Shown here: piece by piece, positions 4,698 to 9,934 of the stretch | How positions within the stretch are numbered: position 1 is the first letter of the stretch | Layout of the letters: the number at the start of each line of letters is the position of its first letter | NCBI RefSeq assembly: GCF_009914755.1 | Contig: NC_060926.1 | DNA: 64,000 nt | Direction: 5' to 3' (one strand) | Source: the human T2T-CHM13v2.0 reference genome, Homo sapiens | Translations under genes and position numbers: made by a program | Notes under the pieces: model-generated | Databases searched by the model: none | The model's input: only the letters and a program-made list of their open reading frames with translations | What the model was told of the DNA's origin: nothing

Positions 4698-5563
4698 ATG
4701 TGGATTTTTAAAATGATTCTGAGAGGAGGGCTTGCTCTAAGGAAGAGTATAAACATAAATGCTGGCTAGTGGAAATGTTTGGTTATTGATAAAACTTGCA
4801 TTTTATTGGCATATCCAGGGACTTATTGGACCATTCAAGATAGAGTTAACAAATTGAATCAAAGGCCTGGAGCTATTGGGAAAACAAAACAAAACTGTGC
4901 TTCTGGACTGAAGAACAGGAATGATTGACCCACGGTAGATTTGTCTCATCCAAAGCCTATTGTGTTTTCTGTGTTCTCTTCCCAACTTCCCCATGACTTC
5001 CCAACAGATTATTACATGCCATTTATACTTTCTTTTCCTACAATTAGAAAACAGTGACGCTTGGACCCAAATGACCTTTAGGCCATGGATTCCAGAGCAT
5101 TTGGACATGTTTGCTTTGCTAGAAAGTGCATCAAATACGGTTTTTAAAATATGAAATCTGAAAACAAAATCTTTGGGCTTCTTCACCATCATTCTGAAAT
5201 TTAATATGTAGTTAGCAAAGCTGGCCAACAGGTAAGTTGATGTTCTTTGTAAAGCTCTGGACATGTCAAGCTATTTGAAGGGGAACCTCACTGTTAATGT
5301 ATTATGCAGCTAGACTTACAGCTTTCCTTTGCTTAATTAAAGATTTTTTGGGGAGATAAAAAACACTCATTAAAAAGAAAGCAAGGACTAAAGGGTTTCC
5401 TAGACTTTTGTTGTACACGTCACCTCTGGGCAACTTTTGCTTGCTGTGTATTGCAAAGGTGTTGTATTCACATTTACACAACTGCATATCAAAGAGGGTC
5501 CCTTTTTTTCACCCATTGTTTCTGAGACGTGTCAAAACAATTTTGATATTAAAAATAATAAGG

Positions 5564-5684
5564 GGCTGGGTGCGGTGGCTCACGCCTGTAATCCCAGCAC
5601 TTTGGGAGGCCGAGGCGGGCGGATCACGAGGTCAGGAGATCGAGACCATCCTGGTTAACATGGTGAAACCCCGTCTCTACTAAA
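5564..5684 (+). mobile_element. AluY left arm (5' half of the split AluY)
   Basis: gatcacgaggtcaggagatcgagaccatcctgg; stops at ...tctctactaaa in the linker; preceded by aaaaataataagg (5551-5563). Confidence 0.93.
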
Positions 5685-5685
5685 G

Positions 5686-7625
5686 ATATCTAGAAAACCC
5701 CATTGTCTCAGCCCAAAATCTCCTTAAGCTGATAAGCAACTTCAGCAAAGTCTCAGGATGCAAAATCAATGTACAAAAATCACAAGCATTCTTATACACT
5801 AATAACAAACAAACAGAGAGCCAAGTCATGAGTGAACTCCCATTCACAATTGCTTCAAAGAGAATAAAATACCTAGGAATCCAACTTACAAGGGACGTGA
5901 AGGACCTCTTCAAGGAGAACTACAAACCACTGCTCAATGAAATAAAAGAGGATACAAACAAATGGAAGAACATTCCATGCTCATGGGTAGGAAGAATCAC
6001 TATCGTGAAAATGGCCATACTGCCCAAGGTAATTTATAGATTCAGTGCCATCCCCATCAAGCTACCAATGACTTTCTTCACAGAATTGGAAAAAAACTAC
6101 TTTAAAGTTCATATGGAACCAAAAAAGAGCCCGCATCGCCAAGTCAATCCTAAGCCGAAAGAACGAAGCTGGAGGCATCACTCTACCTGACTTCAAACTA
6201 TACTACAAGGCTACAGTAACCAAAACAGCATGGTACTGGTACCAAAACAGAGATATAGATCAATGGAACAGAACAGAGTCCTCAGAAATAACACTGCATA
6301 TCTACAACTATCCGATCTTTGACAAACCTGAGAAAAGCAATGGGGAAAGGACTCCCTATTTAATAAATGGTGCTGGGAAAACTGGCTAGCCATATGTAGA
6401 AAGCTGAAACTGGATCCCTTCCTTACACCTTATACAAAAATTAATTCAAGATGGATTAAAGACTTAAATGTTAGACCTAAAACCATAAAAACCCTAGAAG
6501 AAAACCTAGGCATTACCATTCAGGACATAGGCATGGGCAAGGACTTCATGTCTAAAACACCAAAAGCAATGGCAACAAAAGCCAAAATTGACAAATGGGA
6601 TCTAATTAAACTAAAGAGCTTCTGTACAGCAAAAGAAACTACCATCAGAGTGAACAAGCAACCTACAAAATGGGAGAAAATTTTTGCAACCTACTTATCT
6701 GACAAAGGGCTAATATCCAGAATCTACAATGAACTCAAACAAATTTACAAGAAAAAAAACAAACAACCCCATCAAAAAGTGGGCGAAGGACATGAACAGA
6801 CACTTCTCAAAAGAAGACATTTATGCAGCCAAAAAACACATGAAAAAATGCTCACCATCACTGGCCATCAGAGAAATGCAAATCAAAACCATAATGAGAT
6901 ACCATCTCACACCAGTTAGAATGGCAATCATTAAAAAGTCAGGAAACAACAGGTGCTAGAGAGGATGTGGAGAAATAGAACACTTTTACACTGTTGGTGG
7001 AGCTGTAAACTAGTTCAACCATTGTGGAAGTCAGTGTGGCAATTCCTCAGGGATCTAGAACTAGAAATACCATTTGACCCAGCCATCCCATTACTGGGTA
7101 TATACCCAAAGGACTATAAATCATGCTGCTGTAAAGACACATGCACACGTATGTTTATTGAGGCACTATTCACAATAGCAAAGACTTGGAACCAATCCAA
7201 ATGTCCACCAATGATAGACTGGATTAAGAAAATGTGGCACATATACACCATGGAATACTATGCAGCCATAAAAAATGATGAGTTCATGTCCTTTGTAGGG
7301 ACGTGGATGAAATTGGAAATCATCATTCTCAGTAAACTATGGCAAGGACAAAAAACCAAACACTGCATGTTCTCACTCATAGGTGGGAATTGAACAATGA
7401 GAACACGTGGACACAGGAAGGGGAACATCACACTCTGGGGACTGTCGTGGGATGGGGGGAGGGGGGAGGGATAGCATTAGGAGATATACCTAATGCTAAA
7501 TGACGAGTTAATGGGTGCAGCACACCAGCATGGCACATGTATACATATGTAACTAACCTGCACATTGTGCGCTTGTACCCTAAATCTTAAAGTATAATAA
7601 TAAAAATAAAATAAAATAAAATAAA
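5686..7625 (+). mobile_element. 5'-truncated L1PA3-like LINE-1 (ORF2 3' part, 3'UTR, poly(A))
   Basis: ORF2 peptides ([29 protein letters not shown] region, DEFMSFVGTWMKLE). 3'UTR gatagcattaggagatatacctaatgctaaatgacgagttaatggg is not L1HS-Ta. A-rich tail. Confidence 0.93.
5828..7393 (+). pseudogene. Disrupted L1 ORF2 C-terminal fragments (frameshifted)
   Basis: ORFs 5828..6190, 6533..6919, 6729..6959 and 6953..7393 give ORF2p pieces in different frames. Confidence 0.9.
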
Positions 7626-7638
7626 GAAAGAGATACTG

Positions 7639-7949
7639 AACCGGCCACAGTGGCTTGTGTCTGTAATCCCAGCACTTTGGGAAGCTGAGGTGGGTGGATT
7701 ACTTGAGGTCGGGAGTTCGAGACCAGCCTGGCCAGCGTGGTGAAACCCCGACTCTACTAAAAATAAATAAAAATAAATTGGCCGGGTGTGGTGGTGCGTG
7801 CCCGTAATCCCAGCCGCTTGGGAGGCTGAGGCAGGAGAATCGCTTGAGCCTGGGAGGTAGAGGTTGCAGTGAGTCAAGATCGTGCCGCTGTACTCCAGCC
7901 TGGGCGACAGAGAAAGACTCCATCTCAAAAAAAAAAAAAAAAAAAAAAA
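7639..7949 (+). mobile_element. AluS (Sz/Sx-like), A>G rich
   Basis: Full dimer with poly(A); TSD-like aaagagatact / aaagagttact. Confidence 0.92.
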
Positions 7950-8024
7950 GAGTTACTTAGTAATTCACAGAAATTCCAGGGAGGCTGGAAAACCAGGCTT
8001 GAAGGCTAAGGCAGCCAGTGTGGG

Positions 8025-8155
8025 TACTGTCAGATAAAATACAGGATCCTCAGGCAAATCTCGATGTCATTTGGAACATACTTATTTGTTCTTAACCTGA
8101 AGTTCAAATTTAAATGGACATCTGGTATTTTTATTTGCAAAATCTGGCCACCCTA
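8025..8155. mobile_element. MER53-like hAT DNA transposon remnant
   Basis: cagataaaatacagga... and ...tgaagttcaaatttaa...gtatttttatttgcaaaatctggccacccta terminal inverted motifs. Confidence 0.65.
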
Positions 8156-8444
8156 GCCAAGGTGGCTAATTGCCTAAATTATACTCTGAGATGATTCTAG
8201 GTGCTGATACCAGCGATGTTACCCAGCCCTGACTCTGAGCAGGAGATGCCCCCCCACCAGGTCTCTGCCAGCTCTGACTCTGAAAACTTGCTGTCCCACC
8301 CTGAACCTGTTCCTCATGGATCCCCCTTTATACACCTCTCCAAATCGAGGTCTTGAACAGAAGTCCAATAGCCAATCAATCAAAAAAAGATGCCCATTCT
8401 CACCAGTAATCGGGGAAATGCAAGTTAAGACAAAGGATCGCATT

Positions 8445-8590
8445 GGTGAGTCAGTGGGTAGTAATTAAGAGCCTGGACCCTGTGGCCAGACAATGTGGAT
8501 TTGCATCTCGGCTTGGTGGTGTGTTTGGCACTGTGCCTCAATTTCCTCCTCTGTAAAGTGCGGGTAGTAGTCTTACCTCAATACATTTGA
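8445..8590 (+). mobile_element. MIR fragment
   Basis: Core tgtgcctcaatttcctcctctgtaaagtg. Confidence 0.65.
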
Positions 8591-8626
8591 AGAATGTATT
8601 TCTAAATTTCTAATATGCTTTGAAGT

Positions 8627-8938
8627 TTTGTTTTGTTTTTGTTTTTGTTTTTTTTTTGACACGGAGTTTCCCTCTTGTTGCCCAGGCTGGAGTGCAGTGG
8701 CACGGTCTCGGCTCACCACAACCTCCGCCTGCCGGGTTCGGGTGCTTCTCCTGCCTCAGCCTCTCGAGTGGCTGGGATTGCAGGCATGCGCCACCAAGCC
8801 CGGCTAATTTTGTATTTTTGGTAGAGACAGGGTTTCTCCGTGTTGGTCAGTCTGGTCTCGAACTCCCGACCTCAGGTGATCTGCCCGCCTTGGCTTCCTA
8901 AAGTGTTGGGATTACAGGCATGAGCCACCGTGCCGGCG
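8627..8938 (-). mobile_element. AluSp, A>G rich on the + strand
   Basis: Sp diagnostics (gagtttc.ctcttgttgccc, ctcacc.caacc, aactcccgacctcagg); TSD ttgaagtttt on both sides. Confidence 0.92.
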
Positions 8939-9132
8939 CCTTGAAGTTTTTTATGCTCTGGCATAGAGTTCTTCCTGCTTTCTTGATGGGGCCTCCTGGA
9001 AAGAACGTGCCTTTCCTGCCCCTTAATACTCAGCCTCGCCACCATGATTGACGTTGGAAACCATCAGGACTCAAGTCATCACGCCCTGTATCCTTGTTTA
9101 TGCCAACAGGGAAAGTTTAGAAATGTGTTTCA

Positions 9133-9670
9133 CTCAGGCAGGCCATCAAGGTCAACGCCAACGGTGATAAAAGTCATGTCGGTAGTATGATATGATAGTA
9201 GGTATGATGCAGTGAAGAAGGCATTTTGCCGCTACGGCCATCCTTCTCTAAACCCAGGACCTCAGGCTAGGTTCGTTAAGAAAGAAATCCCATCTGAGGG
9301 ACGGTCTACAAAATGCTTGACTGGCACTCCTCAAAACTGTCAAGATCATCAAAACCAAGGAAAATCTGAGAAACTTACAGCCAGGAGGAACCTACGGAGG
9401 GAGAGAAGAAAACTGAATGTCATGTGGGATCCTGTATGGGACCCTGGAAGAGAAAAGGGACATTAGGTGAAAACTAAAGAAATCTGAGTAAAGTGTGGGC
9501 CTTAGTTAGTAATAATGTTCCAATATTGGTTCATTCATGATGACAAATGTACCATGCTAATGTACGATATTAATAAATAGGGTAAACTGGGCGTGGGATA
9601 TAGGAACTCCATACATCTTTGCAATTTTGCTGTAAATCTAAAAATCTTCTAAAATAAAAAGTTTATTGGT
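9133..9670 (+). mobile_element. Ancient L1M (L1MC/MD-type) 3'UTR
   Basis: ctcaaaactgtcaagatcatcaaaa...ctgtaaatctaaaa...ctaaaataaaaagtttatt; homologous to ~23010-23525. Confidence 0.8.
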
Positions 9671-9699
9671 TAAAAATAAAAAAAATAAATAAATAAAAA

Positions 9700-9934
9700 T
9701 AAAAATACAAAAAATTAGCCGGGCGTGGTGGCAGGTGCCCGTAGTCCCAGCTACTCAGGAGGCTGAGGCAGGAGAATGGCGTGAACCTGGGAGGCGGAGC
9801 TTGCAGTGAGCTGAGATTGTGCCACTGCACTCCAGCCTGGGCGACAGAGCGAGACTCCGTCTCGGAAAAAAAAAAAAAAAGAAAGAAAAAAGAAAGAAAT
9901 AATAATAATAATAATAATAATAATAATAATAAGG
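9700..9934 (+). mobile_element. AluY right arm (3' half of the split AluY) with A/(AAT)n tail and TSD
   Basis: Begins at linker aaaaatacaaaaaattagcc; AluY diagnostics gagaatggcgtgaacc and ggagcttgcag; ends aataataagg, matching 5554-5563. Confidence 0.93.

What the first reader, a model, noticed from the sequence alone, without database searches (positions are those of the whole stretch)
5551..9934. One AluY split by a ~4-kb L1PA3 insertion carrying a ~2-kb 3' transduction
Seen: the AluY left arm ends at ...ctactaaa (5684) and an AluY right arm starts at aaaaatacaaaaaattagcc (~9700), so the halves join exactly at the linker. The outer flanks share the TSD aataataagg (5554-5563 / 9925-9934). 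Between them are a truncated L1, its tail, then AluS, MER53, MIR, AluSp and an L1M 3'UTR, followed by AATAAA (9653-9658) and an A-rich tail ~14 nt later. A possible inner TSD is aaa(g/a)ata. Elements much older than AluY cannot have transposed into an AluY, so they must have been copied in as a block. Inference: the L1 read through its weak poly(A) signal, used the old L1M's AATAAA, and inserted at the endonuclease-friendly Alu linker. Standard repeat annotation would show unrelated fragments.
Basis: partly seen in the sequence, partly recalled or inferred. Interest (0 to 1): 0.8.

Follow-up and report, generated by a model that had tools for sequence, protein, structure and literature searches.

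The report
Alu split by L1 carrying chr16 DNA
One Alu repeat was cut in two about 10-20 million years ago by a truncated L1 element that dragged along 2 kb of chromosome 16 DNA; this is a clear but ordinary example of L1 3' transduction.

Summary
Window 7626-9670 has exactly one long paralog in this genome: chr16 (C16) 80904971-80902937, minus strand, 93.96% identity over 2054 nt.

In the window this block follows the intact 3' end and A-rich tail of a 5'-truncated young L1 (5686-7625). It ends 12 nt after AATAAA (9653-9658) in a new 30-nt A-rich tail. On chr16 the sequence carries on into other DNA.

The ~4.0-kb composite sits in the A-rich linker of one Alu. Its left arm (5564-5684) and right arm (9701-9865) align without loss to intact Alus. 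They share an outer duplication, AAAAATAATAAGG, at a TT|AAAA site.

The best reading is L1 3' transduction (about 0.85).

- **Donor L1 missing.** No L1 lies upstream of the chr16 copy in this assembly, so the donor is inferred to have been lost or never fixed.
- **Inner duplication.** It is only 3-7 nt long and ambiguous.
- **Family labels.** AluY, L1PA3, MER53 and MIR could not be tested here.
- **Outgroups.** No primate genomes were available.

This is a known kind of event. Interest is low to moderate.

The parts
5551..5563 (+). Left copy of the Alu's target-site duplication, AAAAATAATAAGG, preceded by TT (a TT|AAAA endonuclease-type site)
   Evidence: the repeat finder family D7
5564..5684 (+). 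Left arm of the split Alu, from Alu position 1 into the A-rich linker (...CTCTACTAAA)
   Evidence: Rfam Metazoa_SRP hit 5565-5679; alignment to intact Alus
5685..5691 (+). 5' junction GATATCT. The G is either a changed Alu A or an L1 variant base. ATA fits both the Alu linker (AAAAATAC) and L1 (..ATATCTAG), so it is microhomology and a possible 7-nt inner duplication AAA(G/A)ATA.
   Evidence: alignment with four L1 copies and two Alus
5686..7596 (+). 5'-truncated L1: the C-terminal part of ORF2, broken into at least five frame pieces, plus the 3' UTR
7597..7625 (+). The L1's own A-rich tail (23 A, 6 T) with five AATAAA hexamers that were read through
7626..9670 (+). 2045-nt block copied from C16:80904971-80902937 (minus strand): the 3' transduction. 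It contains an Alu (+) at 7641-7950, an Alu (-) at 8636-8937 and an old multi-copy repeat at 9285-9670.
9653..9658 (+). The AATAAA signal that was used. It is conserved in the chr16 copy, and homology ends 12 nt after it.
9671..9700 (+). New A-rich tail of the composite insert (24 A, 6 T), absent from chr16
9701..9865 (+). Rest of the linker and the right arm of the split Alu
   Evidence: Rfam hit 9718-9865; alignment
9866..9934 (+). Alu tail (A15, GAAA units, (AAT)n) running into the right copy of the duplication, AATAATAATAAGG (9922-9934)

Best explanation
An Alu (Y- or Sc-like) inserted at TT|AAAAATAATAAGG. Later a young L1PA element, sitting on the minus strand just upstream of C16:80904971, was transcribed through its own weak poly(A) signals and through four further AATAAA hexamers.

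The transcript was cleaved 12 nt after the AATAAA of an old repeat. On chr16 that site is followed within 3 nt by a T37 run from an antisense Alu tail, which could act as a U-rich downstream element (inference).

The L1 machinery then nicked the A-rich linker of the chr2 Alu (CT|AAAAATAC) and primed on the new poly(A) tail. It copied the 2045-nt flank and 1.9 kb of L1 before stopping, and the 5' end was joined at an ATA microhomology.

Shown here:
- the split Alu
- the L1 3' end and its tail
- the unique chr16 paralog with its exact ends
- the poly(A) geometry
- matching ages of the L1 part and the block

Inferred:
- that an L1 once lay at the chr16 site and was lost or never fixed
- the role of the T run
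- the priming steps
For: Paralog:
- 7626-9670 matches C16:80904971-80902937 at 93.96% over 2054 nt.
- Both non-Alu probes (7951-8620 and 8940-9640) find only this one long paralog in the 3.1-Gb genome. The search scores only the best 40 candidates.
- The 19-nt junction word occurs exactly twice, in the window and on chr16.

Direction of copying:
- The chr16 copy carries on past the break, while the window turns into an A-rich tail 12 nt after AATAAA.

L1 part:
- The L1 3' end and tail directly precede the block, on the same strand.

Split Alu:
- The two Alu arms join without loss and share the outer duplication.

Ages agree:
- L1 star-branch estimate is 1.78%, with 18 private changes in 1876 columns, similar to 13-22 in 13 cohort copies.
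- The block has 64 non-CpG changes in about 2035 nt, 3.1% pairwise.
- Changes in the two internal Alus are split evenly: 18 derived on chr2, 17 on chr16, 8 ambiguous.

Background from papers:
- The mechanism is established (passages of PMC9311842).
- About 25% of L1 insertions carry a transduction (abstract of PMC13009371, seen in the listing).
- Source L1s absent from the reference are known (PMC9311842, section 3.2.4).
Against: - No L1 3' end lies next to the chr16 copy, nor anywhere in C16:80904972-80916000. The only L1 piece nearby is an 89%-identical 190-nt fragment 2.3 kb downstream.
- The chr16 break (..TTTAT|GAAAGAG) fits the recalled TT|AAAA site at only 4 of 6 positions.
- The inner duplication is at most 7 nt with one mismatch, and may be only 3 nt.
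- The internal L1 tail and the terminal tail have nearly the same make-up (23 A/6 T and 24 A/6 T). The tail pattern therefore cannot show that the internal tail was copied from a genomic donor.
- Divergence along the block is uneven: 1.46% non-CpG in 7951-8635 against 3.2-4.7% elsewhere.
- No outgroup genome was available, so the empty chr2 site was not seen.
Confidence: 0.85

Rival explanations
1. Chimeric retrocopy. Reverse transcription began on a polyadenylated chr16 transcript that had no L1. After 2 kb it switched template to the poly(A) end of an L1 RNA, or the two RNAs were joined before copying. No L1 ever lay at chr16.
For: - The chr16 site has no L1.
- The internal L1 tail looks like the terminal tail, which must have started as pure poly(A).
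- L1 chimeras with other RNAs are documented (passages of bioRxiv 10.1101/2025.02.02.635956).
Against: - In the passages read, the described chimeras place the non-L1 RNA 5' of an L1 3' segment. Here the order is reversed.
- The switch would have had to land inside the L1 poly(A) tail, so that the complete L1 3' end was kept.
- 3' transduction is far more common (about 25% of insertions; abstract of PMC13009371, listing).
Confidence: 0.08
2. Two separate insertions. First a 5'-truncated retrocopy of a chr16 transcript landed in the Alu linker. Later an L1 landed exactly at the retrocopy's 5' edge, or the two events happened in the opposite order.
For: - TAAAG occurs both before the L1 (5681-5685) and after its tail (7622-7626), so a 4-5-nt duplication for an L1-only insertion can be read.
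- The site is A-rich.
Against: - The second insertion would have to fall within a few bases of the first one's edge.
- The L1 part and the block have the same age within error.
- A 5-nt A-rich match is weak evidence.
Confidence: 0.04
3. DNA-level event: chr16 DNA was captured during break repair, or a segmental duplication occurred, with no RNA intermediate.
For: None specific. Only the absence of an L1 at chr16.
Against: - The copy ends 12 nt after AATAAA in an A-rich tail that chr16 lacks.
- It starts exactly at an L1 tail.
- It lies in an endonuclease-type A-rich site.
Confidence: 0.02

Closest known systems
L1 3' transduction (read-through of the L1 poly(A) signal, with co-mobilised 3' flank)
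   Same: - The L1 3' end and tail are followed, on the same strand, by unique DNA from another chromosome.
- That DNA ends at a downstream AATAAA and a new poly(A) tail.
- The event is interchromosomal, as most are (PMC9311842, section 3.2.4).
   Different: - The source L1 is not present at the source locus in this assembly.
- The event is old and fixed, not polymorphic.
- The transduced block is itself mostly repeats (two Alus and older elements). A repeat annotation therefore shows unrelated fragments.
Nested insertion of a retroelement into the A-rich linker of an Alu
   Same: - The Alu is split exactly at the linker, with both halves kept and on one strand.
- The outer duplication is intact.
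   Different: The insert is a composite of L1 plus foreign flank. Elements older than the host Alu therefore lie inside it.
L1 chimeric insertions with cellular RNAs (U6/L1, Alu/L1, mRNA/L1)
   Same: Two different transcripts' sequences are joined head to tail in one retrotransposition-like insert.
   Different: In the passages read, the partner RNA lies 5' of the L1. Here the non-L1 part lies 3' of a complete L1 end and tail.

Membership tests
L1 3' transduction | An intact L1 3' end with its own A-rich tail, followed on the same strand by non-L1 DNA | tested here: met
   The L1 aligns to its last base (query 1910 = 7596) in 27 of the 29 L1 loci compared (1908 in one more, and one aligned only to 1136). 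The tail is 7597-7625 and the block starts at 7626.
L1 3' transduction | The extra DNA has a colinear source locus elsewhere in the genome | tested here: met
   C16:80904971-80902937, 93.96% over 2054 nt, the only long paralog
L1 3' transduction | The extra DNA ends shortly after a poly(A) signal and is followed by a new poly(A) tail that the source lacks | tested here: met
   AATAAA at 9653-9658; homology ends at 9670; 30-nt A-rich tail; chr16 reads AGG+T37 instead
L1 3' transduction | The source locus carries an L1 directly upstream. This is corroborating rather than required, since source L1s can be non-reference (PMC9311842). | tested here: not met
   No L1 3' end in C16:80904972-80916000
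L1 3' transduction | A target-site duplication and an endonuclease-type site flank the whole composite | tested here: inconclusive
   The site CT|AAAAATAC fits. The duplication is 3-7 nt, AAA(G/A)ATA, and merges with the tail and with L1 microhomology.
L1 3' transduction | An empty site (intact Alu) in an outgroup species | not testable with these tools
   No primate genomes are held
Single Alu insertion (the split host) | Left and right arms on one strand that join without loss, a poly(A) tail, and a flanking duplication at TT|AAAA | tested here: met
AluY subfamily | Diagnostic bases of AluY against AluSc/AluS | not testable with these tools
   No Alu consensus library is on hand. By recall, ATCCTGGTTAACATGG needs fewer changes from AluSc than from AluY, and the right arm fits both.
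L1PA3 subfamily | Diagnostic bases of L1PA3, and an age below that of L1PA4 | tested here: inconclusive
   Only age was tested. The cohort of nearest copies is about 1.6% per copy from its centre and this copy 1.8%. L1PA4 is dated at about 18 Ma (abstract of PMC3525338). Diagnostic bases were not tested.
L1 chimeric insertion (U6/L1 type) | The partner RNA lies 5' of an L1 3' segment | tested here: not met
   The non-L1 block lies 3' of the L1. The definition comes from passages read.

The most novel reading that the evidence does not exclude
No L1 ever lay at chr16. Instead the insert is a reverse-order chimera, in which reverse transcription started on an ordinary polyadenylated chr16 transcript and then jumped onto the poly(A) end of an L1 RNA. 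The L1 therefore ends up on the 5' side. The chimera passages I read do not describe this arrangement. It would fit the L1-free chr16 site and the identical make-up of the two tails.
Probability: 0.08. Interest if true: 0.5.

Novelty: new member of a known kind. Interest (0 to 1): 0.25.

Why it matters
- **Annotation.** It is a clean worked example of how repeats older than an Alu can end up inside that Alu. A fragment-wise repeat annotation hides the fact that this was a single event.
- **Lost source L1.** If the donor reading is right, this 2-kb block is the only remaining trace of an active L1 source on chr16 that was lost or never fixed.
- **Phylogenetic marker.** The locus is a homoplasy-free marker for the ape tree near the orangutan/gibbon splits.
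- **Limits.** The mechanism is textbook, and no gene is involved in the window.

Tried and rejected
- **Sibling insertions.** Both unique probes found only chr16. The 19-nt junction word gave one 1-mismatch hit on C8. It is not next to an L1 tail or followed by the Alu, so I treat it as chance; about one such hit is expected genome-wide by my own arithmetic.
- **Donor L1 by similarity.** None of the 29 L1 loci compared stands out; all are 95.3-97.0% identical. Only 40 of 8052 candidates were scored.
- **Pfam on four ORF2 pieces.** Only one weak RVT_1 match was found, below the cut-off.
- **Tail pattern as a discriminator.** I tried it to tell transduction from template switch and rejected it, because both tails look alike.
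- **Paper searches.** They were corrected.
- **Not done.** Repeat family naming, chr16 gene annotation and primate orthologs, because no tool holds them. No supplementary files were opened, so published lists of fixed transductions might already contain this locus.
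Full report
**What is in the sequence**

Reading 5300-10200 confirms every coordinate in the finding.

- An Alu starts at 5564, directly after AAAAATAATAAGG (5551-5563). That 13-mer is preceded by TT.
- The Alu runs to ...CTCTACTAAA at 5684. L1 sequence follows from 5686.
- At 9701 the text AAAAATACAAAAAATTAGCC resumes. 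It continues as an Alu right arm to 9865.
- Next come a tail of A15, GAAA units and (AAT)n, and then AATAATAATAAGG (9922-9934), which matches the left 13-mer at 12 of 13 positions.

Rfam's SRP model finds a lone left monomer at 5565-5679 and a lone right monomer at 9718-9865. It also finds two complete Alus in between, at 7640-7928 (+) and 8656-8937 (-) (these are sub-threshold hits, as expected for Alu).

In a MAFFT alignment with four intact Alus, the two arms meet in the linker. No Alu column is left uncovered, and they overlap by at most AAA(G/A)ATA.

The right copy of the outer duplication has merged with the (AAT)n run. Only its ...AAGG end is therefore independent evidence. The rest of the case for one Alu is that the two halves are complementary, lie on the same strand, begin at Alu position 1 and end in a tail.

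**The L1**

The stretch 6900-7600 gave 8052 first-look candidates in the genome. The 39 scored hits other than the window itself are 96-97% identical over its full length.

Of the 29 L1 loci fetched, 27 align to the last base before the tail; one more stops two bases short and one aligns only to query position 1136.

The coding part is broken into at least five frame pieces. Only the first piece gives a weak RVT_1 match, to profile positions 166-205 of 205 (E 3.2e-4, below the cut-off). This fits a truncation inside the reverse-transcriptase domain.

Four full-length L1 copies read ...GATTG[T/C/G]ATATCTAG where the window reads CTACTAAAGATATCTAG. The L1 therefore begins at 5686, or at 5685 if the G belongs to it. 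The ATA fits both the L1 and the Alu linker.

**The decisive test**

The two non-Alu probes each find exactly one long paralog:

| Probe | Paralog | Identity |
|---|---|---|
| 8940-9640 | C16:80902967-80903669 (-) | 93% |
| 7951-8620 | C16:80903992-80904660 (-) | 98% |

BLAST of 5000-10500 against 18 kb of chr16 gives one colinear match: 7626-9670 to 80904971-80902937, 93.96% over 2054 nt. The 19-nt word at the start of the block occurs exactly twice in the genome, once in the window and once on chr16.

**Direction and mechanism**

At the left end:

- chr16 reads ...GGAAAGAGATTTAT|GAAAGAGATACTGAACCGG.
- The window reads ...AAATAAAATAAA|GAAAGAGATACTGAACCGG.

At the right end:

- Both read ...AAAATAAAAAGTTTATTGGT.
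- chr16 then continues AGG, T37 and an antisense Alu.
- The window continues with a 30-nt tail of 24 A and 6 T, and then the Alu linker.

The AATAAA at 9653-9658 is 12 nt before the break. Nine other AATAAA hexamers lie upstream between 7599 and 9572 and were not used.

An RNA intermediate copied from chr16 into chr2 is therefore well supported. Both internal Alus align within the block, with only 26 indel columns in all, so they travelled with it. This explains why older repeats lie inside a younger Alu.

On chr16, the T37 run 3 nt after the break would give the transcript a U-rich downstream element. This is my inference, and it assumes that Alu was already there.

**Ages**

Block against chr16:

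- 100 substitutions, 36 of them at CpG.
- Non-CpG divergence is 3.1% pairwise, about 1.6% per lineage.

Polarising the two internal Alus with 20 other Alus gives 18 changes on chr2, 17 on chr16 and 8 ambiguous. That symmetry is expected for two neutral copies.

L1 part, compared with 13 full-cover copies:

- Mean distance to the window copy is 3.41%; distance among the 13 copies is 3.27%.
- This gives a star-branch estimate of 1.78% for the window copy.
- The window copy has 18 private changes in 1876 columns. The other copies have 13-22.

These copies were chosen for their likeness to the window copy, so the estimate leans low.

The L1 and the block thus have the same age within error. L1PA4 is dated at about 18 Ma (abstract of PMC3525338). 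The cohort here looks younger, which fits L1PA3, but no diagnostic bases were tested.

By recalled ape divergences, 1.6-1.8% per lineage lies near the orangutan split. Absence from orangutan cannot be assumed.

**What does not fit neatly**

1. chr16 has no L1 next to the block, nor within 11 kb upstream. I infer a donor allele that was lost or never fixed. Source L1s absent from the reference are known (PMC9311842, section 3.2.4), but the inference is untested here.
2. The chr16 break fits the recalled TT|AAAA site at only 4 of 6 positions.
3. Exactly at the break, chr16 has the 9-mer GAAAGAGAT twice, 4 nt apart. Only 0.2-0.9% of positions in the window and in the chr16 stretch show such a repeat. 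I have no explanation. A retained pair of donor duplications would require an almost exact loss of the L1 between them.
4. Divergence is uneven: 1.46% non-CpG in 7951-8635 against 3.2-4.7% elsewhere.
5. The internal and terminal tails have the same make-up, so the tail cannot tell a genomic donor tail from an RNA poly(A) tail.

**Rivals**

- **Template-switch or RNA-joining chimera.** It needs no chr16 L1. However, the chimeras described in the passages I read put the partner RNA 5' of the L1, which is the reverse of this order. I put it at about 0.08.
- **Two separate insertions at the same base.** This is possible, and a TAAAG repeat can be read on both sides of the L1. But it requires a coincidence of position and of age. 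About 0.04.
- **A DNA-level capture.** It does not explain the poly(A) geometry. About 0.02.

**Comparison and verdict**

The insert works like an L1 3' transduction nested in an Alu linker, and I file it as one. One corroborating feature, the source L1, is not met in this assembly. Two others, the inner duplication and the outgroup empty site, are inconclusive or untestable.

The kind of event is well known (listing). I found no mention of this particular locus, but I ran only general searches and opened no supplementary lists. Interest is low to moderate.

Noticed in passing
L009 6953-6984 (C16:80904953-80904984, minus strand): Exactly at the start of the copied block, the L1-free chr16 site reads GAAAGAGAT TTAT GAAAGAGAT. 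This is a 9-nt direct repeat of a kind seen at only 0.2-0.9% of positions. It could be a chance small duplication or a scar linked to the lost donor. It is unexplained.
   Followed up: partly
window 7951-8635 against C16:80903977-80904660: This non-Alu stretch is much less diverged from chr16 (1.46% non-CpG) than the rest of the block (3.2-4.7%). Possible causes are constraint on the chr16 parent, local mutation-rate differences or gene conversion. None of these was tested.
   Followed up: no
L009 4900-4937 (C16:80902899-80902936): A T37 run, the tail of an antisense Alu, begins 3 nt after the point where the transduced transcript was cleaved. Together with the old repeat's AATAAA, it would form a composite poly(A) site built from two repeats.
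   Followed up: no
window 7597-7625 and 9671-9700: The internal L1 tail and the terminal tail of the composite have almost the same length and make-up (29 nt with 23 A/6 T; 30 nt with 24 A/6 T), both patterned as A4-5T units.
   Followed up: partly
window 7597-7763: The RefSeq 'silencer' listed by the hub covers only the L1 tail, the 15-nt flank and the left arm of the transduced Alu. It therefore lies wholly in repeat-derived, copied DNA.
   Followed up: no
L009 2417-2605 (C16:80900416-80900604, minus strand): A 190-nt L1 3'-end fragment, 89% identical to the window's L1, lies 2.3 kb downstream of the chr16 block. It is too diverged and on the wrong side to be the donor.
   Followed up: no
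L041 (C8:125405912-125405930, minus strand): A 1-mismatch match to the 19-nt junction word also shares AAGCAG upstream with chr16, if the 13-nt repeat unit there is skipped. It has no L1 tail before it and no Alu after it, so I treated it as chance.
   Followed up: partly
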